Below are positions 14,089 through 28,597 of a DNA stretch of 64,000 bases, piece after piece. The notes beneath the pieces were generated by a model. That model was not told where the DNA came from, made no database searches, and saw only the letters and a list, made by a program, of their open reading frames with translations. The first letter of the stretch is position 1; every line of letters starts with the position of its first letter. This DNA is from Candidatus Poribacteria bacterium (GTDB lineage Bacteria; Poribacteria; WGA-4E; WGA-3G). The stretch spans positions 928,001-992,000 of the forward strand of contig CBDANF010000003.1 in assembly GCA_965197475.1 (NCBI GenBank). Reading direction: 5' to 3'. A program made the translations under genes and the position numbers.

Positions 14089-15074
14089 GGCTCATGTAAA
14101 AAGTAAGTGCTATTTTTTCAAAGTTATGTTAGCGTGTTACCTATGGACTTTCCAATACAATCTCTCCTGGATGAAGAAAAAACTCAAGCGTGGGTGTTGG
14201 ATCATTTCCACCTTCAAGGGCTGTGTTGCCCAAAATGCCAAGCGAGCGTGGCGGAGGCACGCAAGTTCCGTCCGACTGAAACAAGTGGTCTACAAGTGTA
14301 TCGCTGCAAACACTGTGAGAGCATCTACAACCTCTATACCGGGACGGTCTTTGCTGGCACGCAGTTTCGTCCCTCACAGGTCGTTCTGCTTTTGCGCGGT
14401 GTCTGTCAAGGTGTTTCAAGTGCACAACTCGGGTGTGAACTGGGTCTAAGTCGTCAAACCGTTCTTTCTATAAGACGTAAACTCCAAACTTCGGCAGAGC
14501 AGATACAACCCGAAGCTGCTTTACCTGATGCTGAAGTCGAAACAGATGAGATGTTTCAAAACGCCGGTGAAAAAGGCGATAAGCACGTTGATGCTTCGGA
14601 TCCGCCGCGTCGGCGTGGCAATAAACGCAGGGGACATGGGACTTATGACAATGATCGTCCGCCTATTGTTGGGACGAAAGGTCGCGAAAGCGGTCTCCTG
14701 AGATTACGTGTTGTGCGGCACACCGATTCTGCGACGCTTTCAACACACGTTCATCAGTGGACGTTGCCGACTTCAACGGTGTATACGGATGGTTGGCGTG
14801 GCTATAACCGTATTCAGCGCGCCCGTGAGATTGTTCTCCATAAGGATGGCGAGTGGGCAAGAGACGCAGACGGTGATGGTCTTTACGAGATCCATACAAG
14901 GACGATTGAAGGTGCCTGGACGACGCTGCGAAACTTCCTTCGTCCCTTTCGTGGCGTTCATAAAAAGTTCCTCGCCGGTTACGTCGCAATCTGTGAGTTC
15001 GTCATGAATCTAAAAGCTGTCAGTGTTGATTTTATAGCAAAACTCGTCAAAAGCACTTACTCTTGACATGAGCG
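14089..15074 (+). mobile_element. IS1595-family IS (986 bp, no cargo)
   Basis: IRs GGCTCATGTAAAAAGTAAGTGCT / AGCACTTACTCTTGACATGAGCG; 8-bp TSD ACTTTTTT at 14081-14088 and 15075-15082. Confidence 0.9.
14107..15066 (+). CDS. IS1595 transposase
   Basis: Zn ribbon CPKC...CKHC, VETDEM, YTDGW and TIEGAW motifs. The true start is probably ATG at 14143. Confidence 0.9.
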   Translation: MLFFQSYVSVLPMDFPIQSLLDEEKTQAWVLDHFHLQGLCCPKCQASVAEARKFRPTETSGLQVYRCKHCESIYNLYTGTVFAGTQFRPSQVVLLLRGVCQGVSSAQLGCELGLSRQTVLSIRRKLQTSAEQIQPEAALPDAEVETDEMFQNAGEKGDKHVDASDPPRRRGNKRRGHGTYDNDRPPIVGTKGRESGLLRLRVVRHTDSATLSTHVHQWTLPTSTVYTDGWRGYNRIQRAREIVLHKDGEWARDADGDGLYEIHTRTIEGAWTTLRNFLRPFRGVHKKFLAGYVAICEFVMNLKAVSVDFIAKLVKSTYS

Positions 15075-16091
15075 ACTTTTTTTAGCATAGGCTAAACCAC
15101 GATTTTTATACGCAATCGCACCATTGGGATTTAATTCAATCGCTTTGTTATGGTCTTCAATGGCGCGATCAACTTCTCCTTTGTCCTTGTAAATCACACA
15201 TCGATTGTTATATGCACTTGTATAATCAGGTTCCAGTTCAATAGCTTTGTCATAGTTTTGCAGTGCCATATCCATTTCACCCATGATACTGTAAACCTTG
15301 CCGAGATTGTAATAAGCACCAGCATTATTCGGTTTTAGTTCTATTGACTTTTTAAGGTCTGTGAAGGCTTTTTCAATCTCACCTTTTGCGCCGTAAGCAC
15401 TTCCTCTATGGTTATAGGCCTCAGCATAATTTCGGTTCAACTCTATTGCTTTATTGTAGTTTTTAATAGCGAGATCTAACTCACCTTTTCTGAAGTAAGC
15501 ATTTCCGCGATTGTTATATGCACTAGCATCATCTGGGTCTAATTCTATCGCCTTGTTGTAGTCTTCAATGGCGCGATCAACTTTACCTTTACTGAAATAA
15601 GCTGTCCCGCGGTTGCTGTAAGTCATAACATGATACGGATCACATTCTATCGCCTTGTTAAAATCTTTGATCGCTCTGTCAACCTCACTGTTGCTGAAAT
15701 AGGCTGCCCCACGGATGTTATATGCCATAGCATAATTTGGGTTTAGATTTATTGCAGTGTCATAGTCTGTGAAGGCTTTGTCAAACTCGCCCTTTCTGTT
15801 GTAGGCATTTCCGCGATTGTAGTAGACAAGGGGACTATCTGGGTCAAGTTCTATTGCTTTGTTATAATCTTTCGCAATGAGTAGTTTTGGACTTGAGAAA
15901 AATTTTAAAAAATCGCTATAAAGCCTTGTGTCCACTGGGTTTATATGGTATAATATAGATAAGAAAATAGGGGGTTGGTAGCCCCCTAAATGAACACAAA
16001 AAGCGAGTTGCTTTTTGACGGTTCTAATCTTATCTGGTATTATATCAGAAATCCGTCAGAAAAAGCAACTCCTATTTCAAGGAGTTATCTG

Positions 16092-16973
16092 ATGGATTTG
16101 TTGAAGGTGATGGAGCGTTTTCCCGATCAAGAGAGTTGTATTTCGCATTTAGAGAAGATTCGGTGGCGAGGTAAACCTGTGTGTCCGCATTGTGAAAGCG
16201 ATCATATAGGAGAACGGACAGAAACAGAAATCGGTCGTATCGGTCGTTGGAACTGCCACGAGTGCCAAGTGAGTTTCAAGGTGACGTGCAGGTCGGTGTT
16301 TCACGGGACAAAGATAGCGTTACAGAAGTGGTTTTTGGCTATTTCGTTGATAACGAATGCGAAGAAAAGTTTGTCAAGTCATCAACTTGCGCGCGATTTA
16401 GACTTGAATCAAAAGACAGCATGGTATATCATGACTCGTATCCGTGCTGAAATGGCAAAGAAAGGTAACGTGCTACTACAAGGCATCATAGAGGCAGATG
16501 AAACTTACATCGGGGGTAAACCTCGTAAGCCTAATAAGAAGGAAGACCACGTGCCTGCCAAGCGTGGACGTGGAACAGAGAAAGACGCTATTATCGGGGC
16601 AGTACAGCGGGGCGGGAAAGTTGTAGCACAACTCGCTAAAGATTTGACAGGACGGACTATTTTAGACTTTATCCGAAGAGTCGTCAAAGTTGAGGATTCG
16701 GAGTTGATGACCGATGAGTATAAGGCGTATCTCGCTATCGGCAAGGAGATGAAACACCATATCATAGATCATCAAACGCAATTTGTTGAGGGTGATGTCC
16801 ACACAAACACAATTGAGGGGTTTTGGAGTCTACTCAAACGAGCTTGGTATGGAAGTCATCACCACTACTGGACTAAATATACGCCCCTGTATGTAGCAGA
16901 GGCGTGCTATAAATACAACTATAGGAGCATTGACAGTATCTTTGATAAGTTTGTTAATGAAAGTATGCGGTGA
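16092..16973 (+). CDS. IS1595 transposase (copy A, 293 aa)
   Basis: CPHC/CHEC Zn ribbon, IEADETYIGG, MTDEY and HTNTIEGFWSLLKR. SD AGGAG precedes ATG 16092. Confidence 0.93.
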   Translation: MDLLKVMERFPDQESCISHLEKIRWRGKPVCPHCESDHIGERTETEIGRIGRWNCHECQVSFKVTCRSVFHGTKIALQKWFLAISLITNAKKSLSSHQLARDLDLNQKTAWYIMTRIRAEMAKKGNVLLQGIIEADETYIGGKPRKPNKKEDHVPAKRGRGTEKDAIIGAVQRGGKVVAQLAKDLTGRTILDFIRRVVKVEDSELMTDEYKAYLAIGKEMKHHIIDHQTQFVEGDVHTNTIEGFWSLLKRAWYGSHHHYWTKYTPLYVAEACYKYNYRSIDSIFDKFVNESMR

Positions 16974-16982
16974 TGGACACAA

Positions 16983-17255
16983 CTAAAGGTATGCCTTATC
17001 AATCTTGTTCTTTTTGTCATCAGGATTTGAGGGAAAATGCTGTGGAAGTTCAAAAGTTGGCTTTCCATCTTTCAGAGCATCGATCATGTCAAGAGCAAAT
17101 TCCAACCTCTCATTGTCCGTGTCAAAAGGTTTCTGAATCACTACGCGAAAATTTGTATCAAGTTTTACAAGGGCGAGTTCTACAAAACTCTCTGTATGTA
17201 AGGCTAAAAGTGAAAAATCAACAGGATCGGAAGGCGGCTTGAATATTACCCACAT
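16983..17255 (-). CDS. IS cargo protein, 90 aa, unknown function (distant paralog of 26059-26331)
   Basis: Strong SD (AAAGGAGA); FDTDNERLEFALDMIDAL aligns ungapped with FKSKEEMLTTFDNFMDAL. Confidence 0.65.
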   Translation of the reverse strand: MWVIFKPPSDPVDFSLLALHTESFVELALVKLDTNFRVVIQKPFDTDNERLEFALDMIDALKDGKPTFELPQHFPSNPDDKKNKIDKAYL

Positions 17256-17311
17256 GGGTTTAGTCTCCTTTGGGGTTAGAGGGGACAGAGTCCCCTCGTT
17301 GGTTGGAATTG

Positions 17312-17701
17312 CTAATACCCGTATGGAGAATCAGCAGCTGAAATTAAAATTATCCAAAGTCCCACCATAGTGCCAGTTCCAATAACACATCCTATTGTAG
17401 CATGTGTTATTTGGTCGTTTTTCACAAGTTTTTGATAAATGCTTGTGTAATAAGCAACATATTCTGGTGATTTTCCAAGCAATTTTTCTGGTAGTACCGT
17501 TGGTGTGACAACATACGCAATTAACATACCGGTAACACCAAGTAGACAACCAACAGTTCCCCATATTTGAGTGTTTGCAAGTGTTGCATCACGTCGTGCA
17601 TCAAATATTGCTTGCGCAGCATCACTTGTTTGTTGTGCAAGTGTGAGATATGGCGTAGTGAATAACATCACAACCATTATAAACGACAAAGTTTTCATCA
17701 A
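17312..17701 (-). CDS. IS cargo exported/membrane protein, 129 aa
   Basis: Signal peptide plus two hydrophobic segments; AAAGGA SD. Confidence 0.7.
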   Translation of the reverse strand: MMKTLSFIMVVMLFTTPYLTLAQQTSDAAQAIFDARRDATLANTQIWGTVGCLLGVTGMLIAYVVTPTVLPEKLLGKSPEYVAYYTSIYQKLVKNDQITHATIGCVIGTGTMVGLWIILISAADSPYGY

Positions 17702-17768
17702 TGTTCCTTTTGTGAGGTAAAATGTGTATGTAGGGGATCAAAAGACCCCCTACATGTTTGCAAGCGGA

Positions 17769-17900
17769 TTATTTACACCGCTTGTGAGGTTTGACAGTTT
17801 CTTTCACCGTTGTGGCGGGACGGCGTTTGTCCGTGCCTTTGGGAAGGAACCGTCCATCTTTGGCATCGCGTACACGCGTGCCAGTGGCTTTTTTAGCCAT
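17769..17900 (-). CDS. IS cargo small basic protein, 43 aa (MAKKATGTRVRDAKDGRFLPK...RRPATTVKET)
   Basis: GAGG SD before ATG 17900. The RDAKxGxF...RRPATTVxET pattern is, from memory, seen in a widespread family of tiny hypothetical proteins. Confidence 0.65.
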   Translation of the reverse strand: MAKKATGTRVRDAKDGRFLPKGTDKRRPATTVKETVKPHKRCK

Positions 17901-18007
17901 AGTATACCTCACTTTGCTTGAGATAAATTGGTGCATAGCGTATTTCCAGTGCGTTATGCACTGTTCAAGCATATAAAATTGATACGTTAAACGGGTATCG
18001 TTCGTAG

Positions 18008-18084
18008 GTTCGTTTACACCTTTCTATGGGTGAGGGCAGGACACAACACAAGGAGTGTTGCGATAGAAATCCTGCCCAACGAAC
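18008..18084 (-). ncRNA. Putative pseudoknotted structured RNA (cargo-operon leader, copy A)
   Basis: GUUCGUU-GGGCAGGA-UUUCUAU-CGCAACAC-uccuu-GUGUUGUG-UCCUGCCC-ucaccc-AUAGAAA-ggugua-AACGAAC; same topology as 25426-25507. Confidence 0.75.
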
Positions 18085-18092
18085 TTGAGAAT

Positions 18093-18122
18093 AGTATAAC
18101 ATGGAAAGAATTTGAGTGTCAA
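18093..18122 (-). promoter_or_regulatory. Inward sigma70 promoter of IS copy A cargo operon
   Basis: TTGACA-N18-TATACT with a TG extended -10. Confidence 0.75.
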
Positions 18123-18168
18123 GTGAAAAATTTGAGAAAAAATTTCAAGTCCAAAACTACTCATTGCG

Positions 18169-18270
18169 AAAAACTATTCCAGTTATTACACAAACAATGA
18201 CACCGATCCAAAAAAATATTGAAATGATAGCTGGTGTTATCATTGTTTTAAAATTTAGAAAATCTTTCAT
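18169..18270 (-). pseudogene. DUF4282-like membrane protein, 3'-truncated by IS copy A
   Basis: MKDFLNFKTMITPAIISIFFWIGVIVCVITGIVF ends exactly at the IR. Confidence 0.65.
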
Positions 18271-18298
18271 GTGGATTCCCCCGTTTTATCCGTTAAGC

Positions 18299-19060
18299 TC
18301 AGGATTTGTTTTTCACACCTTCGGCCATCAATTTATATTCCGCCGCTCCCGATGCAATCCATCCGCCGACACCTACGAGTAGAAACTGCACACCTGCCTT
18401 CACATATTTTTCAACGGTATCATCCATCGCCAATATGCCAGCGACACGACCCGCATCTTGGATACGTGCCAATGCCGTATCAATAGTATTTTGCACATCG
18501 GGGTGGTTATGATTGCCAATATGTCCCATTGAAGTCGCTAAATCTGAGGGTGCTACAAAAAACACATCAATATGATCAACGCTGAGGATTTCGTCCAAAT
18601 TGTTTACTGCAACAATATCTTCAATTAAGACCACGAGCAACGTCTGTGAATTGGCGACCTCAAAATAGTTGTCCACACCGTAACCTTGACGACTCGTGAA
18701 CATGCCTCGATGTCCGATCGGTGCGAACTTTCCGCCATCAACAACATTTTGTGCTTCTGCTTTCGTGTTGACATGTGGCACGACGATGCCCATCGCACCA
18801 CAATCCAACGTGCGGTAGATAAGTGCTTGATCGTTACGATTGACACGTACCACAGATGTCATGCCCCACAGATCGCATGCGCGTGTGAGATTCCCCAGAT
18901 TTGACGCATCTACATTGCCATGTTCACCTTCTAACCACACGCTATCATATCCGTTTGGACCGAAGGCATCAATATCATCTGCGTTCGTCAATCCTGCGAT
19001 GATGTATGTGAGCTCACCATCAGCCAACTTCTGTTTTATCCGATTTGGTCTTATTTCCAT
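18299..19060 (-). CDS. HpcH/HpaI aldolase family protein
   Basis: EGEHG, VRV, LDCGAMGIVVPHV, LIED and APSDL. Confidence 0.9.
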   Translation of the reverse strand: MEIRPNRIKQKLADGELTYIIAGLTNADDIDAFGPNGYDSVWLEGEHGNVDASNLGNLTRACDLWGMTSVVRVNRNDQALIYRTLDCGAMGIVVPHVNTKAEAQNVVDGGKFAPIGHRGMFTSRQGYGVDNYFEVANSQTLLVVLIEDIVAVNNLDEILSVDHIDVFFVAPSDLATSMGHIGNHNHPDVQNTIDTALARIQDAGRVAGILAMDDTVEKYVKAGVQFLLVGVGGWIASGAAEYKLMAEGVKNKS

Positions 19061-19080
19061 AATGTTTTATGTTCTCTCTT

Positions 19081-20463
19081 TCAGTTATTGGGTTTTGTAA
19101 GGAATTCTGTCGGTAACACTTGATGTACAGTATCAATCACCAATTGTTCAACACCAGGAGCAAATCGGGTTGGCTGCCCGAAATAGATCATTGCACCGCC
19201 ACCTTCGTATCCACCTTCAGCTAACACGCGTTCTGATGGAATATAGCCGGGGAATGCGTTTGCATAAGCACTTACCCATAGTCTTGTAGCATCAAATTCC
19301 TTTTTCAGACGCAGCGAAAAATCTACTACCACCTCACTTGCAAGGAAAAGCACTGCCAATTCATCACCGAACGTCCATGCCTGTATCGGATAGGATATTT
19401 CCGTCTTGATTGATTGTCCGTTTTTTAACATTTCAAGATGTTTTTTCGCATGGTATGCGGGTGCACCACCTTGTGCAGCCCGTGCCTCCCATTCTTCATG
19501 GGTCGGGAGTTTATCAAACGGTAAATTCACTCTCTCAAATACGCCTATAGGGACATTGGAAATGCTTATTGCCTCTCGTTCAAGTTGGTGTTCAACCTCT
19601 TGTGCAAGTGCATGTCCGTGTTCTTTTGCATAAGCGAGACGTGTTTCAAATACCTCTTGCTTTCCTTCAGGCATTGGTCGCATCCGTGACTCTGGGTTTG
19701 CGTCAGCCCCACAGCTGATCGTTATTAAGGCAGTTACGTCGGGCTGCGCTTTTTGAATCTCTTCTTGTGCATATCCTGCCCAGTCTCCACAGATATGGTT
19801 GTCCGAACCTGCTAACGTTGTGCAATGGCATGCGTAACTTGCCCACACAGCACGCAAAGTGCCATCTGCATCAGTAAACTGCATGACAGGTAATGAATGA
19901 TCGACAGGTCCACCATCTGTGCGCCGATTTTTTGCGAAACCGAGTTCTCCGATGTTCCATGCTAATTGACACGGTTTTCGCCTTGTGAGTGCCTCCATTG
20001 TGACAGTTTCCATCCAGTTAGCAAGTTGACGGGTGTATCGGTCAATCTTTTCTTGTTCTTCTGGCGAAATATCGGAACTGAAAATGAACGATGCAGCGTT
20101 TGTCAGGCACGGCGCGCTATGCGTATGTGTGAAACATGCAACAAAATTCTCCCGTGAGATTCCAGTTTTATGTTCTACGCGATGGGACACTTCTTCGGTC
20201 AACTCATCAGGTAACCCGCAATTTTCTACGGTTACCATGACCACGGGACCCTCTGCATCGCTACCAATGGCGAGTGCCTTCGCCCATATCCGCTGAATAA
20301 TACCTTCGGATTTTGTTCTCCGACTTCCGTAACCGTTGAGTCGAATTGGGTAATCGGGAGTAATGTCAATTTGTGCAACGCCAACTTCAATAAGAGTATC
20401 TCTATCTGTCATTTGAATTTCCTTTATACTATGCCACTTTTTCAAAGATAATACGTTTTTCAC
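19081..20463 (-). CDS. Neutral/alkaline ceramidase-like N-terminal domain protein
   Basis: DITP, THTHSAP, YACHCT, YIPS and GGYEG. The start is probably at MTDRD (~20412). Confidence 0.8.
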   Translation of the reverse strand: MKNVLSLKKWHSIKEIQMTDRDTLIEVGVAQIDITPDYPIRLNGYGSRRTKSEGIIQRIWAKALAIGSDAEGPVVMVTVENCGLPDELTEEVSHRVEHKTGISRENFVACFTHTHSAPCLTNAASFIFSSDISPEEQEKIDRYTRQLANWMETVTMEALTRRKPCQLAWNIGELGFAKNRRTDGGPVDHSLPVMQFTDADGTLRAVWASYACHCTTLAGSDNHICGDWAGYAQEEIQKAQPDVTALITISCGADANPESRMRPMPEGKQEVFETRLAYAKEHGHALAQEVEHQLEREAISISNVPIGVFERVNLPFDKLPTHEEWEARAAQGGAPAYHAKKHLEMLKNGQSIKTEISYPIQAWTFGDELAVLFLASEVVVDFSLRLKKEFDATRLWVSAYANAFPGYIPSERVLAEGGYEGGGAMIYFGQPTRFAPGVEQLVIDTVHQVLPTEFLTKPNN

Positions 20464-21425
20464 TCCACTTCCATTGCATCGGCAAAAACATCCTCAAGAG
20501 AGTGCCTTACCTCTCTCAATTGACGAAGTTGGACACCCGTTTCATGTGCCAACTTAAAGAAAAATGTTCCATCAGTCTGCTCTTGTTCGTTTGATGTCAC
20601 GCGGACGTGCCCATCTGGTCTTAACTCCGTATCGTAGGGATAAGGTTCTAAAGCAGCAACGTAAGCATCGCGGTCACCTACAATTTTCAGATCAAACGCT
20701 TGCCCGTGATTTTTTCTGAGTTCTTCTATCTGTCCTTGGACGACAAGGCTTCCATGAGACAGTGCCATTACGTCCTTACACGCGGATTCAACATCTGGTA
20801 AGAGATGTGAAGATAACAGGACATCTATTCCCTTATCCACGGCAATGTCTTGAACGAGCAAAAGCATCTCCTCTCTTCCAGTTGTATCCATGCCATTTGT
20901 GGGTTCATCAAGCAGTAGCAACTTCGGATCATGCACTAAGGCTTGTGCTAACTTAACACGCTGCCGCATACCTACTGAATATCCGCTGATAGGTCGGTAG
21001 CGTTCTTCATCAACACCGACATAATATAGCACTTCGTGTGATCGCTGCATCGCATCACGCGACGGCATGCCGCAGAGTTGACCGGCATAAGCAACAAGTT
21101 GAACGGCATTCATCTGAGGGATTAAGCAATCATCTTCAGGCATATATCCGACCTGTTGTCGGATATATGCCTGTTCGGTTTGCACATCCAATCCGAACAC
21201 TTTTGCTTCACCTCGGCTCGGTTGAATAAAACCGAGTAGCATCTTAATCAACGTGCTTTTTCCTGCGCCGTTAGGGCCCAGTAATCCAACAGCACCACCC
21301 TCTAATTCTACAGATAACTCGTTTAGCGCAGGATTTGTGCCAAAAAAGACTGATACGTTTTTTATTTCAATTAGCATTTTGTTTATGGATATGCCTATTT
21401 TATTGAGACAGCATTGAAAGCACAC
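20460..21425 (-). CDS. ABC transporter ATP-binding protein
   Basis: GPNGAGKST, YSVGMRQR, LLLLDEPT and SSH. The start is probably at MLIEIK. Confidence 0.92.
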   Translation of the reverse strand: MCFQCCLNKIGISINKMLIEIKNVSVFFGTNPALNELSVELEGGAVGLLGPNGAGKSTLIKMLLGFIQPSRGEAKVFGLDVQTEQAYIRQQVGYMPEDDCLIPQMNAVQLVAYAGQLCGMPSRDAMQRSHEVLYYVGVDEERYRPISGYSVGMRQRVKLAQALVHDPKLLLLDEPTNGMDTTGREEMLLLVQDIAVDKGIDVLLSSHLLPDVESACKDVMALSHGSLVVQGQIEELRKNHGQAFDLKIVGDRDAYVAALEPYPYDTELRPDGHVRVTSNEQEQTDGTFFFKLAHETGVQLRQLREVRHSLEDVFADAMEVE

Positions 21426-21454
21426 TTACAAAGCGCGCCTACAAGCAATGTCTA

Positions 21455-22570
21455 TTATGAATAAATTCGGTTTACGCGTTTTCCTATATTTGTTAAGATT
21501 TCATACGGAATTGTATCGGCTCGTTCAGCTATTTCACCAATTCCGATCTCTTCATTCCCCTGTTTGCCTATCAACACGACTTCATCACCAACAGAGACGT
21601 TATCTGAAAGTTCTAACTTAACCACCATCACATCCATACAAACACGACCAAGAATAGGGCGGCGCACCCCCCTAATTAACACCTCACCGATGTTAGAAAG
21701 TGTTCTCGTATAACCATCACCGTAGCCAACTTGTATGCCTGCCACACGGATTCTGCGCTGTGCCTTATATGTCAATCCGTAACTTACACCTTCACCTATT
21801 TCAATAGAGTCTACCCATCCGACACGCGCCTTCCACGCGAGCGCAGGTTGCAACTGAATCGGTTTTTCCTTTGCGGGATAGATCCCGTATAGACTCAAGC
21901 CGGGACGGACAGCATCAAAATGAGATTCCAGTATCGCAAGAGCCGCCGCGCTGTTCGCGACATGTTTCAGCGGCACATTGGAAACACTCGTAAACACGGA
22001 AGAAAACCTGTTTAGTTGAAGATGTGCAAAACTTTTATCTACCTCGTCTGCTGTTGCAAGGTGTGTAAAAATACCTTCGATTTCAAGCCCAGGCAGTGTT
22101 TTTAGTGTTTCAAGAAATTGTGCTGTTTTGGTGTAGTGAATCCCACTTCGATTCATTCCGGTGTTAATATCAACGTGAACTTTTACTTTTTTTGTAGATG
22201 TAAGTTGCAATCGGGTCTTACCATCTTCTACTACTTTGTTCAACTTTTGCGCTAAAGTCAAATTATCAACCGCCGGAGTTAACTCATAGGTAACGATTTC
22301 TTCTGCACAATCCGGCAAAGGACTAAACAGAATTAGGATTGGCTTATGAATTCCTGTCTGACGCAGTTCAATGGCTTCGTCAACTGTTGCTACTGCAAAC
22401 ATATCCGCAATTGTTTGCAATGCCTCTGCAACAGGAATTGCACCGTGTCCGTAGGCATCCGCTTTCACAACAGCGATTAGCCGCTTTCCTGTGTGCGACT
22501 TTATCGCTTCAGCGTTGGCTCGAATTGCCCTCAAGTCAACTTCTGCGTGTGATTGGCTACTTGATCCCAC
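21455..22570 (-). CDS. alr: Alanine racemase
   Basis: AVVKADAYGHG, TGMNRSG, VRPGLSLYG, GYGDG and GRVCMD. Confidence 0.96.
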   Translation of the reverse strand: MGSSSQSHAEVDLRAIRANAEAIKSHTGKRLIAVVKADAYGHGAIPVAEALQTIADMFAVATVDEAIELRQTGIHKPILILFSPLPDCAEEIVTYELTPAVDNLTLAQKLNKVVEDGKTRLQLTSTKKVKVHVDINTGMNRSGIHYTKTAQFLETLKTLPGLEIEGIFTHLATADEVDKSFAHLQLNRFSSVFTSVSNVPLKHVANSAAALAILESHFDAVRPGLSLYGIYPAKEKPIQLQPALAWKARVGWVDSIEIGEGVSYGLTYKAQRRIRVAGIQVGYGDGYTRTLSNIGEVLIRGVRRPILGRVCMDVMVVKLELSDNVSVGDEVVLIGKQGNEEIGIGEIAERADTIPYEILTNIGKRVNRIYS

Positions 22571-22587
22571 AACTATTTCCTGTCGCG

Positions 22588-23343
22588 TTAACGTATTTCT
22601 GACAGAGTGCCTTCAACCCCGATCAACGTCAGTTTCTGTAACAACCATGCATCTTCCATTACGTTCACGATCTCCAGCGTAAGGGTAAGCTCATAATTCC
22701 CCGGGGCAGTAAGAATTGAGGAAACATCTACTTCATCTGCAATTATTAACGGTCCGTCGGGCTGTACGGCACCAATTGCGCGGTCTCGAATAACATTCGT
22801 CCCGTTGATAGCTATACTCAAAAACGCGCCTGCGCGCGCTGTCTCCTGAAGTATTTCATATCGCAACGTGATGTTCTCACGAAACAGTTCTTCAACGTTC
22901 AACCGATATGTCAAAGTCTGCGTGAAGGTGTTCCCTTGCCAATAGCGGTTTGGCATAACAACGATCGCATGACCGATATTTACTTCAATTCGAATGTCCT
23001 GACGTTTAGTTATTGTTCCATCAGACACTTCAAGGGTTATCATATAGGTGCCAGCCGATTCAGGTGCAACATAAACAACGCTTGTCCCATTCCCTGTAAT
23101 CCTTCCGCCGCTTGCGTCCCATTCGTAAACCAGCACCGCAGGATCCCCAGAATAGTTTACCGATGCTGTGATGGTTGTAGTATCACCAATATTGAGTGTT
23201 TGAGACTCGGATTCTAAATCAATATCAAGCATCTCCTTATCCATGCTCAGCAAGTTGTTTGTATCACAAGCTGATATTAGACTGGCTGCACACAATAAAC
23301 AGAGGATTTTAAAATAAAAAAATTGGGTGTTGTAGATTTCCAT
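22588..23343 (-). CDS. PKD/Ig-like domain lipoprotein
   Basis: Lipobox ISAC; YEW...G...V.Y.AP...GTY.ITLEVSDG. Confidence 0.7.
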   Translation of the reverse strand: MEIYNTQFFYFKILCLLCAASLISACDTNNLLSMDKEMLDIDLESESQTLNIGDTTTITASVNYSGDPAVLVYEWDASGGRITGNGTSVVYVAPESAGTYMITLEVSDGTITKRQDIRIEVNIGHAIVVMPNRYWQGNTFTQTLTYRLNVEELFRENITLRYEILQETARAGAFLSIAINGTNVIRDRAIGAVQPDGPLIIADEVDVSSILTAPGNYELTLTLEIVNVMEDAWLLQKLTLIGVEGTLSEIR

Positions 23344-23548
23344 TAATTCTATTATACTATAGAGACTGAATTTGTGCTATAATTAAAAGGTTTTATGTAG
23401 ATGGATCACATTGCATACTTATAGTTTTGATTGGCAAATTGCAGAACTAATGTTTTTGTGTATTTGCAGTCAAACGGGATTTTGATAGAGTTTAAAAACA
23501 TTTGTTTCTTAAAAATAGCGTTTTGGTTGATTTCAAAGGGAATTCAAA

Positions 23549-25297
23549 TTGTTACGTTTTCCGAATCCTGGATCAGACATTAACAGTTTCATCAGAATAT
23601 TCTACGAGATTTTTGATGCCCTAAAGGATCGAGAATCCTTTTCTTTAGATGACATAACATCAACTCTGGTTGAGCGCAACCTAGCTACTTCCTGTGGATT
23701 TGCTGGAGAAGAAGCCCTTTCACACTCAACACGGAAGGATAGGAGCCGTGATCCTTTGTATAATCAGTCCAAAATGTACTCTGAACTATTCAAAATATTA
23801 GGTTGGATCCATCCATTCAAGGGGAAACAATTAGACTTCCAATTTACTTTTTTTGGCGCACATGTCGTTAGGGCAATACAGGATCCGGCGGCGATTTTCA
23901 GAGAATCTGCTTTAGGAGTTGCTTATCCAAATGAAATTTTAGATGTCAAAGGTAACCACCAACTAAGACCATTTGCAACTATATTACGAACATTAGGGGC
24001 ACTAGACGGTTTGTTAGCACGCGATGAATTAATAATTGGTCCGATGTGTCTAGATAACGATCGAGACGATAATCTTTTCAGTAACATGATTAAGGAAATT
24101 CATACTTTAAGAGGTTATTGGAAAGCTTTAGATAACAAGATGAAAGAAATTGCCAACCAAAGAAACATTAAACCAAATACAATGAAAAATTACACACGAT
24201 TCCCTTTAGCAGTGTTAAGATGGACAGGTTGGACAAAAGATGAAACCATAAAAGTCATTTATGATAAGGCAATAAAATTTGACAAATTGACAGAAAAAGG
24301 GAAAATGGTTTTAGAATTTCTTGAAAAATGTAAAGATATTAGAAAATTCGATTTGGAAAAAATCAACAGAGAAACAAAAAACGCTATTATCCGATTCAGT
24401 TTTTATCAGATGTTAGAAAGAGCGGGTTTTGATACTGCTCCCGTTGATTCCATGCTTTCTAACGATAAAACTTTAATCACAAGTTACTTAGGTTCTGAAA
24501 ATCGTCCTGTCCTTTTTTCCCCATTCCAAGAAATGTCATCTGATTACCTACTGAATATTTTCCCCAATCCGTCAGGAAGCGAAACAACTCAAGCACGCCA
24601 AAAGTTGATTGCTTCAACTACTAATGTCGAAAGACGTGAATTTCTGTACTCTAATGTAGAACTTAAAATCAGTAGTGCATCAGATCTGAAGATTGTTGAA
24701 CCTGCCGATTTTAGGAACAAAATGCTGAATCAGAATATTGACGCACCGATACTGAATTTGTTCGAAATGGCAATTACAAAATATAGAAGTCTTGATCCTG
24801 CAATTGAACCTATTGCTATTCAATATTTAGATGCCAATCAGGATAAGTTCTATCCTCTGATTGTAAAACTGTTTAATGCAATTGGATATGATTGTAAACT
24901 TTCTCGGCCTGGAGTAAACTATGAAAGATGGGATGCAATGATTATAGATAAACAGCACTCTATGCCAATAGAGATTAAGTCTCCTGGAGAAGAAATATTT
25001 CTATCAGTCAAAGCTATCAGACAGGCATTGGAAAACAAAGTGATCCTACTTGCTAGGTCCGCGTATCCAACAAAGTTCCACGACACATCTCTCGTTGTCT
25101 GCTATAATTTGCCTAATAACCGGTCAGAAGTAAATTCACTGATTAACGATATTTTTGAAACTTATAAAATAGTAATTGGAGTGATAGATTTTAGATCTTT
25201 ACTAAAAATTGCTGGATCACAGTTATTTCTGACAAAACAACATCGTAAAGACCAATTGGAAAAGTTACATGGTATCATCAAATTATCGAATTCTTAA
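23549..25297 (+). CDS. Putative restriction endonuclease large subunit (N-terminal recognition region + C-terminal PD-(D/E)XK)
   Basis: C-terminal RWDAMI...PIEIK motif; low GC; clustered with two DNA methyltransferases. Confidence 0.75.
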   Translation: MLRFPNPGSDINSFIRIFYEIFDALKDRESFSLDDITSTLVERNLATSCGFAGEEALSHSTRKDRSRDPLYNQSKMYSELFKILGWIHPFKGKQLDFQFTFFGAHVVRAIQDPAAIFRESALGVAYPNEILDVKGNHQLRPFATILRTLGALDGLLARDELIIGPMCLDNDRDDNLFSNMIKEIHTLRGYWKALDNKMKEIANQRNIKPNTMKNYTRFPLAVLRWTGWTKDETIKVIYDKAIKFDKLTEKGKMVLEFLEKCKDIRKFDLEKINRETKNAIIRFSFYQMLERAGFDTAPVDSMLSNDKTLITSYLGSENRPVLFSPFQEMSSDYLLNIFPNPSGSETTQARQKLIASTTNVERREFLYSNVELKISSASDLKIVEPADFRNKMLNQNIDAPILNLFEMAITKYRSLDPAIEPIAIQYLDANQDKFYPLIVKLFNAIGYDCKLSRPGVNYERWDAMIIDKQHSMPIEIKSPGEEIFLSVKAIRQALENKVILLARSAYPTKFHDTSLVVCYNLPNNRSEVNSLINDIFETYKIVIGVIDFRSLLKIAGSQLFLTKQHRKDQLEKLHGIIKLSNS

Positions 25298-25388
25298 GCA
25301 AAAGAAAACATCCAAAAGACTAAAAACAATAGCAAAAGATATCGCAATGAGTAGTTTTGGACTTGAAAATTTTTCTCAAATTTTTTAC

Positions 25389-25417
25389 TTGACAAAATCC
25401 TGCCAGTATAGTATCCT
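25389..25417 (+). promoter_or_regulatory. Inward sigma70 promoter of IS copy B cargo operon
   Basis: TTGACA-N17-TATCCT; the -35 lies in the conserved subterminal sequence shared with copy A. Confidence 0.7.
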
Positions 25418-25425
25418 ATTAACAT

Positions 25426-25507
25426 CACGAAAACTTTGGTAGAGAATGTTACCCGCGTCGCAAGGCGCGGTCTCTACCATAACCAAGTAACATTGGAAAG
25501 TTTCGTG
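25426..25507 (+). ncRNA. Putative pseudoknotted structured RNA (cargo-operon leader, copy B)
   Basis: CACGAAAACUUU-GGUAGAGA-AUGUUAC-CCGCGUC-gcaa-GGCGCGG-UCUCUACC-auaaccaa-GUAACAU-ugg-AAAGUUUCGUG, with a GNRA tetraloop. Confidence 0.75.
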
Positions 25508-25628
25508 TGTATAGTTCTCGTGAACCAAACAGTTAACATCATATTTATAGAATCAGCGACATAATAATCGCTTTGCATTTAGCTTATTACATCGCTGAAA
25601 CCACTCCCTTTTACACAAGGAGACTATT

Positions 25629-26003
25629 ATGTCTTTGTTTTCAGATTGGAAAGAACGCAGGAAACACAAAGATAGAGATAAGTGGCTTATAAGGGAATTC
25701 CCTCGTCTTGCATTGACACATTATGAAACCTTGCGTGATCTAAACCCTTCTGATACTCCCAAAAAGCAATTGTATGAAACGATTATTAGAGGGTTTGCTC
25801 TCACCTTTGGTGTGCCCAATGAAAAGCGCGATGAATTTACCGAATGCATTTTGCATACAGCAACTCTTGGTGAACCATCTGAACCTTTTGGTTTACGTAT
25901 GATTGTTGTCTCACTTATATGCTCGACATGGAGCTTAAAGAGTGAACTATCTATTGCTGTAGCAATAACCAGCGTGTCAGAAGTAATCCCCGAATACTTA
26001 TAA
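25629..26003 (+). CDS. IS cargo protein, 124 aa, unknown function
   Basis: AAGGAG SD; no recognisable motif; unrelated to the copy A cargo. Confidence 0.65.
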   Translation: MSLFSDWKERRKHKDRDKWLIREFPRLALTHYETLRDLNPSDTPKKQLYETIIRGFALTFGVPNEKRDEFTECILHTATLGEPSEPFGLRMIVVSLICSTWSLKSELSIAVAITSVSEVIPEYL

Positions 26004-26058
26004 CAACTCTGACAACGAGGGGACCCTGTCCCCTCTAACTCCAAAGGAGATTAAAATC

Positions 26059-26331
26059 ATGTTTTTCGTTGAATATACCGAAAATAATGAAAGAAAAGCA
26101 TTAAACTTGGCTATGTGTCAGAGAATTGAAACTGAAGAACGCCACATAAGCGCAAAAAGTAGTTTCTACATCTACATACATCACAAAGAACGCGCAAAAA
26201 TGGTGTTAGAATTCAAATCAAAAGAGGAAATGTTAACCACTTTTGATAATTTTATGGACGCACTCAACCGGTGTCAAGCTCACTTGTTTTCCCAGAATGT
26301 TTTGTCTGAGGAACATTATCGGCAGTCCTGA
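26059..26331 (+). CDS. IS cargo protein, 90 aa, unknown function
   Basis: AAAGGAGA SD; weak similarity to 16983-17255. Confidence 0.65.
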   Translation: MFFVEYTENNERKALNLAMCQRIETEERHISAKSSFYIYIHHKERAKMVLEFKSKEEMLTTFDNFMDALNRCQAHLFSQNVLSEEHYRQS

Positions 26332-26493
26332 ATTCTTCAACATACCTGTGAAATGCATCGATGAAATATTCAGCAACGATACAAAATTCTTCAAAGAATT
26401 CTGTTTCAGAAAGAGCAGATCTTGAAGGACTATCACTTTTCTTATCTAGTCCGTGCTGACTCAATACATCTGCCATAGAATCTCTAACTTCTC

Positions 26494-27375
26494 TCACAAC
26501 ATACTTTCGTTGACAAACTTGACAAACAAGCTGTCAACGCTCCTATAGTTATACTTATAGCACGCTTCCGCCACATACAGCGGTGTGTATCCTGTCTGAT
26601 AATGGTGATGCTGTCCATACCAAGCCCGTTTGAGTAGTGACCAGAACCCTTCAATCGTGTTTGTATGTGTATCACCATCAGCAAACTGCACCTTGTGGTT
26701 GATAACAGCGTGCTTCATTTCCTTTCCAATAGCGTTGTAAGCCTGATACTCATCGGTTATTAGTTCCGAGTCCTTTAGGTTTACAGCACTCCGAATAAAC
26801 TCAAGGATAGTGCGTCCTGTGAGGTTATGTGCCACCTGTGCGACAACCCTACCCCCACGTTGCACTGCTCCTATTATAGCAGTTTTCTCCGTTCCTCTGC
26901 CACGTTTATGTGGTTCATCATCTTCACGTTTGTTCTTTTTACGAGGTTTACCGCCAATATAGGTCTCATCTGCTTCAATGATACCTTGTAGTAAAGCCCC
27001 GCCTTTCTTTGCCATTTCAGCACGAATACGTGCCATCATAAACCATGCTGTCTTTTGATTCAAGTCTAAATCGCGCGCCAGTTGATGCCTTGACAAACTT
27101 TTCTTCGCATTCGTTATCAACGAAATAGCCAAAAACCACTTCTGTAACGCTATCTTTGTCCCGTGAAACACCGACCTGCACGTCACCTTGAAACTCACTT
27201 GGCACTCGTGGCAGTTCCAACGACCGATACGACCGATTTCTGTTTCTGTCCGTTCTCCTATATGATCGCTTTCACAATGCGGACACACAGGTTTACCTCG
27301 CCAACGAATCTTCTCTAAATGTGCAATACAACTCTCTTGATCGGGGAAACGTTCCATGACCTTGATTAAATCCAT
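26494..27375 (-). CDS. IS1595 transposase (copy B, 293 aa)
   Basis: Same motifs as copy A; N-terminal ~110 aa nearly identical to copy A. Confidence 0.93.
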   Translation of the reverse strand: MDLIKVMERFPDQESCIAHLEKIRWRGKPVCPHCESDHIGERTETEIGRIGRWNCHECQVSFKVTCRSVFHGTKIALQKWFLAISLITNAKKSLSRHQLARDLDLNQKTAWFMMARIRAEMAKKGGALLQGIIEADETYIGGKPRKKNKREDDEPHKRGRGTEKTAIIGAVQRGGRVVAQVAHNLTGRTILEFIRSAVNLKDSELITDEYQAYNAIGKEMKHAVINHKVQFADGDTHTNTIEGFWSLLKRAWYGQHHHYQTGYTPLYVAEACYKYNYRSVDSLFVKFVNESML

Positions 27376-28597
27376 CAGATAACTCCTTGAAATAGGAGTT
27401 GCTTTTTCTGACGGATTTCTGATATAATATCAGATAAGATTAGAACCTTCAGAAAGCAACTCTGCTTTTTGGGTTAATTGGGAGGCTACAACCTCCCTTT
27501 TTTCTTATCTATATTATACCATATAAACCTTGTCTACACAAGGGTTTATCACACTTTTTCACATGTTTTTTGCAAGTCCAAAACTACTTACTGTGAAAGA
27601 TATTATTCCTATTTCAATTGAATGGGGCGAGAGTGCAAAACAACCTATAATAAAATTTTCTGACGGTGGGCAGGTATTAGGTTCTTGTATCCACTGTATG
27701 AATCCGCCTTGTATTGAATATACAGGTAACGAAATTTACTCAGAAACATTTCGGGAGTTTCCTTCAGATAGAAACTTAGAAGTATGTCCAACTAAAGCAA
27801 TAAACTGGCCTCAGGACAACGATTCCCCTACAATAGATAGTGAAGCATGTATCTTCTGCGGTATATGCGTTAGCCGCTGCCCCGTTGCAGCAATTTACCT
27901 TGACTCGGAAGTAGGAACAGCTATATTAAACGATCAACCAAACGAGTACTTTCTACTTCAAAACGAAGAAGTTTCTGAAAAGGTTCAAAAACCTTTACTT
28001 CAGAAGTTTTCGCAAATCTCTGAAAATGGAATTTTCCTATTAGAAAACGAACACATTCTCCAGCAGTTCTTTGAAAAATTTAAGTCCGTCGCTACTGGAC
28101 AAAGTACCCAGTTCCCTAACCATCTTGTTCGCAACTTAATGATAGAGTTAGGTATTAATACATTGATGAGTCGGCGTGGAGACACTAATATTCGAATGGA
28201 CATTGTTTTTGAACAAATTGGAAAAACTTGCGGAACATGTGAAGTGGAATTAGGCAATGGAGTACTAGATGCGCCCAGAAACCTACTTGATAACGTTGCA
28301 GTTTTGGTATCAAGATACAAAATTAGCAAAGAGAACATTTTGCCGTTAGTCGTGACTTTTTCATTACCTAATCACCGTTCAGAATATTGGAATGTAATAA
28401 AAGATATAAAACAAGTGTTAAACCTAAAAATTAATTCTCTGACTGTTGGGATGTTAGTTTTGTTGGTTTGGAACAGAGTTAAAGTATCTCTCGATTCAAG
28501 TGAGATCTTTTATGCTGACTCAGAACAATATTCTGTAAGGGAGAAATTTGAATCTGTACTTGGAAGAGAACTAAATGTTACAATGGGTTATCCTGGG

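What the first reader, a model, noticed from the sequence alone, without database searches (positions are those of the whole stretch)
15873..27595. Family of modular gene-shuttling IS1595 transposons: shared ends and transposase, exchangeable hairpin-delimited cargo
Seen: copies A (15873-18168) and B (25343-27595) share IRs, length (~2.3 kb), a 293-aa transposase and a convergent cargo operon, but carry different middle cargo. A has a 43-aa basic and a 129-aa membrane protein; B has a 124-aa protein. Every cargo gene is preceded by a hairpin plus a strong SD: TGCTTGA..GTGCATA..TATGCAC..TCAAGCA before the 43-aa gene, ATGTAGGGG..CCCCTACAT at ~17728-17755, and TCAGCGA..TAATAA..TTATTA..TCGCTGA at ~25553-25598. 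B has a perfect 8-bp TSD, so the whole unit transposed recently. Established: IS1595 derivatives with passenger genes exist. Inference: the fixed promoter, RNA leader, variable slot and fixed last module look like an expression platform that captures and swaps small genes, analogous to an integron but with no integrase.
Basis: partly seen in the sequence, partly recalled or inferred. Interest (0 to 1): 0.85.

Follow-up and report, generated by a model that had tools for sequence, protein, structure and literature searches.

The report
Cargo-carrying IS1595 transposons with leader RNA
Two real copies of a large family of small jumping genes in a sponge-symbiont (Poribacteria) genome carry shuffled sets of tiny passenger genes, expressed from a built-in promoter and a previously undescribed folded RNA leader that the same bacteria also place in front of TnpB genes.

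Summary
A (15873-18168) and B (25343-27595) are IS1595-family elements with 23-24-bp inverted repeats, a 293-aa zinc-ribbon/DDE transposase and a convergent passenger operon. B has a perfect 8-bp duplication.

The genome holds 40 end-paired elements in at least 10 types. They are transporter IS (tIS), a known kind.

The modular reading is largely right:
- Homology between types breaks at the transposase stop and at two conserved hairpin+SD junctions.
- All four combinations of two p43 subtypes with two slot-gene families occur.
- Sister transposases carry different cargo.

Three corrections:
- The last module is not fixed.
- Cargo-less and leader-only relatives are multicopy.
- A lacks a duplication because copies recombine (24 cross-copy half-duplication matches against 2.1 expected).

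Homologous recombination at conserved junctions therefore explains the swapping better than an integron-like mechanism.

The main new result concerns the RNA leader. It is a 78-nt three-way-junction RNA with a 7-bp pseudoknot that covaries in every position. It has no Rfam match and occurs in 107 of 151 Poribacteria genomes searched. In 16 of 29 best-per-genome sites it lies directly upstream of TnpB genes.

Cargo function remains unknown.

The parts
15873..18168 (+). Element A (2296 bp), an IS1595-family transporter IS. The 24-bp perfect IRs are at 15873-15896 and 18145-18168. It has no target duplication.
   Evidence: There are 6 copies of 2296 bp plus 3 length variants in the genome.
16092..16973 (+). 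Transposase A, 293 aa from the conserved MDLLKVMERF start. The ORF is open from 15990.
   Evidence: Pfam DDE_Tnp_IS1595 3e-36 and Zn_ribbon_IS1595 1.5e-9. dN/dS against B is 0.11.
18093..18122 (-). Inward-facing sigma70-like promoter of the cargo operon: TTGACA-18-TATACT with an upstream TG.
   Evidence: 11 of 12 matches, the best site in the element.
18008..18084 (-). Pseudoknotted leader RNA (P1, P2a-bulge-P2b, P3). The bulge UUUCUAU pairs with the P3 loop AUAGAAA.
   Evidence: CM R2 gives 53.2 bits, E 6.7e-12. Covariation.
17915..17971 (-). Nested hairpin (TGCTTGA..GTGCATA..TATGCAC..TCAAGCA) followed by the SD GAGG, upstream of p43.
   Evidence: The sequence is conserved in the E, G020, G036 and G009 elements.
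17769..17900 (-). p43, a 43-aa very basic protein (first cargo gene).
   Evidence: It is 88-95% identical in three other genomes, with dN/dS 0.08-0.13. No family found.
17728..17755 (-). Junction hairpin HP1 (ATGTAGGGGG..CCCCTACAT). It is followed by CACCTCAC and an SD, and forms the upstream border of the variable slot.
   Evidence: The homology break between A and E lies here.
17312..17698 (-). Slot gene p128, with a signal-peptide-like N-terminus and hydrophobic segments.
   Evidence: Relatives are 50% and 39% identical in G020 and G159. No Pfam or NCBIfam family.
17256..17301 (-). Junction HP2 (hairpin 17279-17297, GAGGGGACTCTGTCCCCTC) plus the SD AAGGAG. It forms the downstream border of the slot.
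   Evidence: I3. It is 85-95% identical in types A-E while the transposases are 75-83%. Compensatory variants occur in other genomes.
16983..17255 (-). Last-module protein p90A (beta4-alpha fold, unknown function). Its end lies 10 nt from the transposase stop.
   Evidence: The family has 72 clusters. AF2 pLDDT 83. No PDB fold match.
25343..27595 (-). Element B (2253 bp), with the transposase on the minus strand. The 8-bp duplication AAAGATAT lies at 25335-25342 and 27596-27603.
   Evidence: There are 4 copies in the genome.
26494..27375 (-). Transposase B, 293 aa.
   Evidence: Pfam DDE_Tnp_IS1595 2.5e-37 and Zn_ribbon_IS1595 9.5e-10.
25389..25417 (+). Cargo promoter of B: TTGACA-17-TATCCT.
   Evidence: 10 of 12 matches.
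25426..25507 (+). Leader RNA of B. The bulge AUGUUAC pairs with the loop GUAACAU.
   Evidence: R2 gives 76.8 bits, E 1.1e-18.
25553..25598 (+). Hairpin TCAGCGA..TAATAA..TTATTA..TCGCTGA ahead of the SD of p124.
25629..26003 (+). Slot gene p124 (unknown function).
   Evidence: No family.
26013..26058 (+). Junction HP2 of B (hairpin 26017-26035) plus the SD AAGGAG.
26059..26331 (+). Last-module protein p90B, a divergent member of the same family (23% identical to p90A).
   Evidence: It is 52% identical to the G036 homologue.
26264..26497 (-). 77-aa ORF on the transposase strand. It overlaps the transposase stop and the end of p90B.
   Evidence: Its homologue in G036 is 41% identical, with dN/dS 0.37.

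Best explanation
A and B are two sibling transporter insertion sequences (tIS) of the IS1595 family in a Candidatus Poribacteria genome.

Shown:
- Each element is bounded by the IR CGCAATRAGTAGTTTTGGACTTG and encodes a zinc-ribbon/DDE transposase.
- Each inserts with an 8-bp AT-rich duplication and moves as a whole unit, cargo included.
- Just inside the cargo-side IR lies a strong sigma70-type promoter that fires inward.
- The transcript begins with a 78-nt structured leader, then runs through one to three small genes, each with a strong SD.
- The genes are separated by two conserved GC-rich hairpins (HP1 and HP2) and converge on the transposase gene.
- The cargo sets are mosaics.

Inferred:
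- Mosaics arise by ordinary homologous recombination or gene conversion between the many co-resident and incoming paralogous elements. The short conserved stretches (IR-promoter-leader, HP1+SD, HP2+SD, transposase 3' end) serve as crossover sites.
- The junctions are conserved because they are expression signals, that is, intercistronic stem-loops plus ribosome-binding sites.
- The leader is a cis-acting 5' module. I think it most likely stabilises or insulates the mRNA through a 5'-terminal P1 stem and a compact pseudoknot. Poribacteria mobile elements of unrelated families share it.
- In the tIS the same transcript probably also runs antisense into the transposase gene and damps transposition.

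Cargo proteins are real genes of unknown function.
For: Family and mobility:
- Pfam domains.
- 40 end-paired elements, 11 with perfect 8-bp duplications.
- Type clusters A x9, B x4, C x6, D x4, F x7, G x5 and singletons.

Mosaicism:
- D against E is 95.5% over the transposase and unrelated from the transposase stop to HP2. It is then 96% from exactly HP2 through the DUF805 gene.
- A against E shares HP2 (91%) and the p43 region (78%), but the slot gene is unrelated.
- HP1 and HP2 are conserved in other genomes, with stem-preserving changes.
- All four combinations of A-like or E-like p43 with the mem128 or DUF805 slot gene occur: G000-A and G020, G068, G000-E, G159.
- The B and E transposases are sisters (99/99) with different cargo. 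The p43+DUF805 pair also sits beside a distant transposase in L102.

Recombination is frequent:
- 24 half-duplication matches between different copies, against a null mean of 2.1 and a maximum of 7 in 200 shuffles.

Promoter:
-.

Leader:
- A descriptor scan gave 28 hits in 7 sequence variants, against 3 in reversed-sequence controls.
- 94.9% of cells are paired against 72.1% in shuffles, 26 of 28 pairs have double changes, and slid controls give 38-44%.
- All 7 pseudoknot pairs covary, although the covariance model contained no pseudoknot.
- G-U pairs fit only the cargo strand.

Cargo is coding:
- p43 dN/dS is 0.08-0.13.
- The last-module family has 72 clusters.

Cargo-strand terminator-like hairpins lie only near the far (left) end and inside the transposase gene.
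Against: - No experiment or read-level RNA data was available. The element is present in four sponge metatranscriptome runs only as assembled contigs, which cannot show starts, strand or processing.
- No donor of the swapped modules was found in this genome, so each exchange is inferred from end states.
- The junction segments are short (about 45-70 nt) for efficient RecA recombination.
- Their position exactly at module borders would also suit a site-specific process.
- Missing duplications could in part be assembly errors at repeats.
- The antisense-control and stabiliser roles are inference only.
- In the leader, P2b and the central pseudoknot positions vary much more than the nearly fixed P2a stem. 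A pure stabiliser does not predict this.
Confidence: 0.72

Rival explanations
1. Dedicated cassette exchange. HP1 and HP2 are folded single-strand recombination sites, analogous to attC. The IS1595 transposase or a host recombinase uses them to capture and swap single genes, so the element is an integrase-less integron.
For: Homology breaks coincide with the hairpins. The stems are kept by compensatory changes across genomes. One gene sits in each slot, and a fixed upstream promoter drives them.
Against: The elements contain no recombinase ORF. HP1 and HP2 have different sequences and each is fused to an SD, as expected of expression signals. No arrays of repeated sites or free cassettes were seen. 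The other breakpoint is simply the end of the transposase gene. General recombination between copies is demonstrably common.
Confidence: 0.1
2. No swapping. An ancestral element carried all modules, and present types differ only by lineage-specific loss and divergence.
For: Deletion derivatives exist: a 2080-bp A variant, leader-only L058, and L067 with a p43/last-module fusion. D has frameshifted transposase and DUF805 genes.
Against: Unrelated genes occupy the same position between the same junctions. The four-combination pattern and the transposase/cargo incongruence need recombination. D and E are 95-96% identical on both sides of a wholly unrelated last module.
Confidence: 0.06
3. The leader and hairpins are DNA-level structures needed for transposition (end recognition or single-strand intermediates), not RNA elements.
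For: The leader lies next to the IR in the tIS. In TnpB elements it lies just inside a hairpin-rich region that I took, untested, for the IS200/IS605-type left end. Structure conservation alone cannot separate ssDNA from RNA.
Against: IS1595 relatives without the leader are multicopy: F x7, L052 type x15 and L069 type x6, with no CM hit. The leader always follows a -35/-10 pair at a fixed short distance and precedes an SD and ATG. G-U pairs occur on one strand only. It also precedes a methylase gene and a host miaA-like gene.
Confidence: 0.04

Closest known systems
Transporter IS (tIS) of the IS1595 family
   Same: A single zinc-ribbon/DDE transposase of the IS1595 type, short terminal IRs and an 8-bp duplication. 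Passenger genes unrelated to transposition lie inside the IRs. The class is defined in 10.1101/2021.05.26.445724 (passage read).
   Different: Here at least five cargo types coexist in one genome with a common cassette-like layout (promoter, structured leader, hairpin+SD junctions) and clear reassortment. Which ISfinder subgroup the ends fit (ISNha5-like CGGnnT is recalled, not tested) was not determined.
Integron gene cassettes (attC / IntI / Pc)
   Same: One fixed promoter drives exchangeable single genes bounded by hairpin-forming sequences.
   Different: There is no integrase and no common attC-like site, and only one to three slots are present. The unit moves by DDE transposition, and exchange is best explained by homologous recombination.
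Mobile insertion cassettes / non-autonomous IS derivatives
   Same: Types H (1465 bp, C3:3407940-3409404) and J (965 bp, C3:4003175-4004139) have the family IRs and perfect 8-bp duplications but no transposase.
   Different: They lack the leader (no hit) and the junction hairpins. H carries a 279-aa protein with a weak DUF4238 match.
Transposon-encoded structured RNAs (TnpB omega-RNA, IS110 bridge RNA, IS200 5' UTR)
   Same: A structured RNA encoded inside a mobile element next to its end. It is frequently associated with TnpB genes (16 of 29 sites).
   Different: It lies 5' of tnpB, directly after a promoter and 10-15 nt before the start codon, not at the 3' end where omega-RNA lies. Weak HgcC and sot0042 hits mark that 3' region. 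No guide-like segment matching flanks was looked for. The same RNA heads cargo operons of a DDE transposon. There is no Rfam match at E<=1.

Membership tests
IS1595 family | DDE transposase matching the IS1595/ISXO2-like catalytic domain | tested here: met
   PF12762 E 3e-36 (A) and 2.5e-37 (B), above the curated cutoff.
IS1595 family | N-terminal zinc-ribbon DNA-binding domain | tested here: met
   PF12760 E 1.5e-9 and 9.5e-10, above the cutoff.
IS1595 family | Short terminal inverted repeats and an 8-bp target duplication | tested here: met
   IRs. There are 11 of 40 perfect 8-bp duplications, and 24 further halves are matched across copies.
Transporter IS (tIS) | Passenger genes inside the IRs that move with the element | tested here: met
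   Whole units including cargo are >=99.6% identical at 9 (A) and 4 (B) loci. B, E and one C copy have duplications.
Integron | IntI tyrosine recombinase next to the cassette array | tested here: not met
   The only long ORF in any of the 12 representative elements A-J is the transposase, a methylase or an inserted IS3-like gene. A genome-wide IntI search was not done.
Integron | A common attC-type recombination site at each cassette border | tested here: not met
   HP1 (ATGTTAGGGGTC..) and HP2 (GAGGGGAC..GTCCCCTC) are different sequences. The third border is the transposase stop.
Any Rfam 15 RNA family (for the leader) | Covariance-model match at or near the gathering score | tested here: not met
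   No hit at E<=1 on the leader in three searches. The only hits lie elsewhere and are far below gathering.
TnpB omega-RNA | RNA overlapping the 3' end of tnpB and the right end of the element, with a 3' guide | tested here: not met
   The leader starts 87-95 nt before the TnpB match on the same strand in 11 of 16 sites, including the two TnpB genes used as queries. In the other five the match starts 179-428 nt downstream. It also occurs without TnpB.

The most novel reading that the evidence does not exclude
The 78-nt leader is a new class of functional RNA that acts as a portable expression module for unrelated mobile elements: an IS1595 DDE transposon, IS200/IS605 TnpB elements and orphan methylases. 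One stem (P2a) is nearly fixed, while the central positions of the covarying 7-bp pseudoknot vary freely. This pattern suggests a recognised protein- or RNA-polymerase-binding scaffold with an element-specific 'barcode'. Possible roles are a processive antitermination or processing RNA, or a self-cleaving insulator. In that reading the conserved hairpin junctions downstream are true cassette borders that let elements trade genes.
Probability: 0.2. Interest if true: 0.85.

Novelty: new variant of a known kind. Interest (0 to 1): 0.62.

Why it matters
IS1595 elements with passengers are catalogued, but little is known about how such minimal transposons acquire and exchange genes. This single long-read genome, together with about 150 related genomes, gives a natural series. 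It runs from a plain IS, through an IS with promoter and leader, to elements with one to three reassorted small genes, with breakpoints at defined non-coding junctions. That makes the origin of passenger-carrying IS directly testable.

Separately, the leader is a well-supported structured RNA absent from Rfam. It has more than a thousand copies restricted to two Poribacteria families and usually sits immediately 5' of TnpB genes. A conserved 5' RNA in front of RNA-guided nuclease genes is unreported in the papers I could search. It could bear on how TnpB expression is controlled, and it could yield a compact, sequence-tolerant 5' UTR module.

Tried and rejected
- Cargo function, families. Pfam and NCBIfam gave nothing for p43, p128, p124, p90A/B, p78, p83, p164, p175 or p77. 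Only the E and D slot gene is DUF805.
- Cargo function, homologues. The word-indexed protein search found only the query itself. Cluster look-ups gave 'hypothetical protein' in Poribacteria and one implausible source name.
- RNA evidence. The four metatranscriptome runs are kept as contigs. Contig breaks at 18008, 18011 and 18084 coincide with the leader borders. They are equally expected from assembly-graph branching at a variable segment, so I draw nothing from them.
- Alignment. MAFFT misaligned the five leaders, so I built the model stepwise.
- Chance hits. The SraB hit (24.5 bits against a gathering score of 130) is a chance terminator-like match.
- Type I. Its leader (L009) fits the nested helices but not the pseudoknot.
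- Composite transposon. A and B as one composite transposon is rejected. The outer flanks differ and B has its own duplication.
- HP1 survey. The exact-pattern survey found it in only 7 of 112 genomes, and one of those looks like chance. The p43-type cassette is therefore rare, and the A-type variant of HP1 escapes that pattern.
- Literature. Searches for 'Poribacteria-1', for Poribacteria + 'RNA motif' + transposase, and for TnpB + leader + pseudoknot + IS1341 found no description of the leader. The main text of PMC5737381 has no mention of Poribacteria. Its supplements, which list the individual motifs, could not be seen.

Full report
**1. What is at the coordinates**

ORF listing, repeat search and alignment show two elements in opposite orientation.
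- A is 15873-18168, with the transposase on the plus strand.
- B is 25343-27595, with the transposase on the minus strand.
- They share 1076 nt (left end plus transposase) at 82%, the cargo-side end at 53 nt and 96%, and an internal 50-nt segment at 90% (17252-17301 and 26013-26062). The rest of the cargo region does not align.
- Both transposases match DDE_Tnp_IS1595 and Zn_ribbon_IS1595 above the curated cutoffs.
- B is flanked by the perfect 8-bp repeat AAAGATAT. A is not.

**2. The genome-wide family**

The window is C3:928001-992000 of a 5.70-Mb, 3-contig assembly. BLASTN and an IR scan found 40 end-paired elements. They cluster at 97% as follows:

| Type | Copies and size |
|---|---|
| A | 9 (six of 2296 bp, two of 2420 bp, one of 2080 bp) |
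| B | 4 |
| C | 6 (1970 bp) |
| D | 4 (2298 bp; transposase and DUF805 gene frameshifted) |
| E | 1 (2404 bp) |
| F | 7 (1139 bp, no cargo) |
| G | 5 (about 2450 bp), plus one of 3469 bp carrying an inserted IS3-like gene pair |
| H, I, J | single elements without a transposase |

Relatives fetched with the transposase all carry Candidatus Poribacteria titles, apart from two 'uncultured bacterium' contigs and one short contig binned as Gammaproteobacteria (79 loci).

**3. Why A has no duplication**

- Eleven of 40 elements have perfect duplications.
- Among the other 29, 24 half-duplications match a half at a different copy, in direct or inverted sense. Within-flank shuffles gave a mean of 2.1 and a maximum of 7 in 200.
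- Whole pairs are reciprocally swapped. Examples are the B copies at C2:263228 and C2:1429522 and the C copies at C3:2472772 and C3:2586070.
- A's left flank pairs with the A copy at C2:98957.

Recombination between copies, giving inversions and rearrangements, is therefore common. Assembly error at repeats cannot be fully excluded.

**4. Cargo architecture**

Read on the cargo strand, every cargo type has the same order:
1. The IR.
2. A -35/-10 pair. In A this is TTGACA-18-TATACT with TG, 11 of 12 matches. In B it is TTGACA-17-TATCCT, 10 of 12.
3. A structured leader.
4. The genes.

The genes by type are:
- A and E: p43, HP1+SD, slot gene, HP2+SD, last module.
- B, C and D: slot gene, HP2+SD, last module.

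The slot genes are unrelated to one another: p128 (A), DUF805 (E and D; E 4.8e-22), p124 (B) and p78 (C). The last modules of A, B, C and E belong to one divergent family. D has an unrelated 83-aa gene.

p43 is under strong purifying selection (dN/dS 0.08-0.13) and the other genes show pN<pS, so these are genes. None has an assignable function.

**5. Is the cargo modular?**

Pairwise BLASTN of representatives gives sharp borders.
- D and E are 95.5% identical up to the transposase stop and unrelated across the last module. They are again 96% identical from exactly HP2 onward.
- A and E share HP2 and the p43 region but not the slot gene.
- HP2 is 85-95% identical in A-E, although some transposases are only 75-83% identical.
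- HP1 and HP2 recur in elements of other genomes with stem-preserving differences. Examples are GAGGGGG/CCCCCTC in G036 and AGGGAC/GTCCCT in G020.

Across genomes the modules reassort:

| p43 subtype | Slot gene | Where found |
|---|---|---|
| A-like | mem128 | G000-A, G020 |
| A-like | DUF805-like | G068 |
| E-like | DUF805 | G000-E |
| E-like | mem128 | G159 |
| A-like | p164, with a B-type last module | G036 |

In the transposase tree, B and E are sisters (99/99) with different cargo, and A groups with C. The tree has 21 rows. D was left out because its transposase is frameshifted. L102 has a long branch.

Cargo is dispensable for spread. F (x7), the L052 type (x15) and the L069 type (x6) have no cargo. 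The L058 type (x5) keeps only the promoter and leader. L067 is a deletion that fuses p43 to a last module.

**6. Mechanism of exchange**

I found no recombinase in any element. The junction hairpins are two different sequences, each fused to an SD, and the third border is the end of the transposase gene. Together with the recombination signal of section 3, the economical explanation is homologous recombination or gene conversion at short conserved regulatory stretches. A site-specific process is not excluded.

**7. The leader RNA**

*Fold.* Folding the five leaders showed one common fold with different sequences:
- a P1 stem;
- P2a (GGUAGAGA-like, nearly fixed);
- a 7-nt bulge;
- the P2b hairpin;
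- a P3 hairpin whose loop is the exact complement of the bulge.

*Detection in this genome.* A strict descriptor found 28 sites in this genome, in 7 sequence variants, against 3 in reversed-sequence controls.

*Covariation.* I built a covariance model stepwise. It aligned 42 hits, 41 of them distinct. On that alignment:
- 94.9% of cells pair, against 72.1% in shuffles and 38-44% when partners are slid;
- 26 of 28 pairs show double changes;
- all 7 pseudoknot pairs covary, although the model cannot encode a pseudoknot.
The nested helices are fitted to the model, so their counts lean towards it.

*Database status.* Rfam 15 has no match at E<=1.

*Distribution.*
- 35 of 61 genomes in a relatives draw have a match, including 31 of 36 other genomes of the genus.
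- 107 of 151 genomes across the phylum draw have a match. These are family f1 at 90 of 99 and genus g6 of f3 at 16 of 20. None was found in the other families searched. More than 1200 matches were reported.

*Context.* I examined the best site in each of 29 other genomes.
- In 16, a TnpB homologue follows on the same strand. In 11 of these the match starts 87-95 nt after the leader start. In the other five it starts at 179-428 nt.
- In 4, the site lies within 260 nt of an IS1595 IR.
- The other 9 have different neighbours or are cut by a contig end.
- Four of four TnpB candidates tested carry OrfB_IS605 and Cas12f1-like_TNB.
- In this genome the leader also precedes a TnpB gene and a last-module homologue (L019) and a 757-aa N6-methylase (L009).

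*Function.* The leader is a promoter-proximal 5' module shared by unrelated mobile elements. Its function is inferred, not shown.

**8. Expression**

Four sponge metatranscriptome runs of one study hold 76-98% of the sampled words of the A cargo region. Their contigs cover 15871-18172 but not the flanks. This shows presence in RNA libraries only.

On the cargo strand, terminator-like hairpins occur inside the transposase gene and near the left end (16881-16905, 15968-15988, and others), not after the last module. This is why I suggest antisense read-through.

**9. Comparison and verdict**

These are members of the IS1595 family and of the tIS class. The variant features are a cassette-like passenger operon with reassorted modules and a new structured leader shared with TnpB elements. 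Calling the system an integron analogue describes how it looks, not a demonstrated mechanism.

Noticed in passing
window 14107-15066 (+): A third, divergent IS1595-type transposase ORF (319 aa; DDE_Tnp_IS1595 E 1.8e-12) lies just left of A. It is not part of the A-G family defined by the IR core.
   Followed up: no
window 15057-15935 (-): A TPR-repeat ORF with seven 102-nt tandem units (D1) has its only start codon inside the left end of A. A seems to have interrupted or replaced the 5' part of a TPR gene.
   Followed up: no
G000 C2:1207542-1209961 and C3:2858111-2860530 (L006): Two A copies are 2420 bp long. About 41 bp inside the p128 gene is replaced by about 165 bp, which truncates the protein to 98 aa.
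   Followed up: no
G000 C3:3407940-3409404 (L007) and C3:4003175-4004139 (L008): These are transposase-less elements with the family IRs and perfect 8-bp duplications. One carries a 279-aa protein with a weak DUF4238 match, the other only small ORFs.
   Followed up: partly
G000 C3:1699146-1702189 (L009); also L097: A 3-kb segment between degenerate IR-like ends holds the leader in front of a 757-aa N6_Mtase/Methylase_S protein. In another Poribacteria genome an IS1595 element carries a 434-aa methyltransferase-like ORF (DPPF motif seen in the translation, no family search) as its only cargo.
   Followed up: partly
L019 (G000 C3:2860531-2868000): Beside an A2 copy lie two items. One is a TnpB gene with the leader. 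The other is a second leader followed, about 400 nt on, by a 127-aa last-module homologue, two small ORFs and a methylase fragment. Weak HgcC and sot0042 Rfam hits mark TnpB 3' ends and a region upstream of a leader.
   Followed up: partly
L144 (G020 C1:2628700-2631700): A promoter+leader copy sits in front of a 335-aa IPP transferase (miaA-like) gene. It may be a mobile promoter-leader driving a host gene.
   Followed up: no
L102 / L026 (G009): The IR, promoter, leader, p43 and a truncated DUF805 gene lie on the same strand as, and upstream of, an IS1595 transposase. This is a rearranged or inverted cargo arm.
   Followed up: no
window 23549-29500: B is inserted between a 582-aa ORF and a 362-aa Fer4-domain ORF, which are followed by a 300-aa ORF whose translation looks like a DNA methyltransferase (DPPY motif, no family search). 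The listed start of the 362-aa ORF (27530) lies inside B's end, so its true start is probably further downstream.
   Followed up: no
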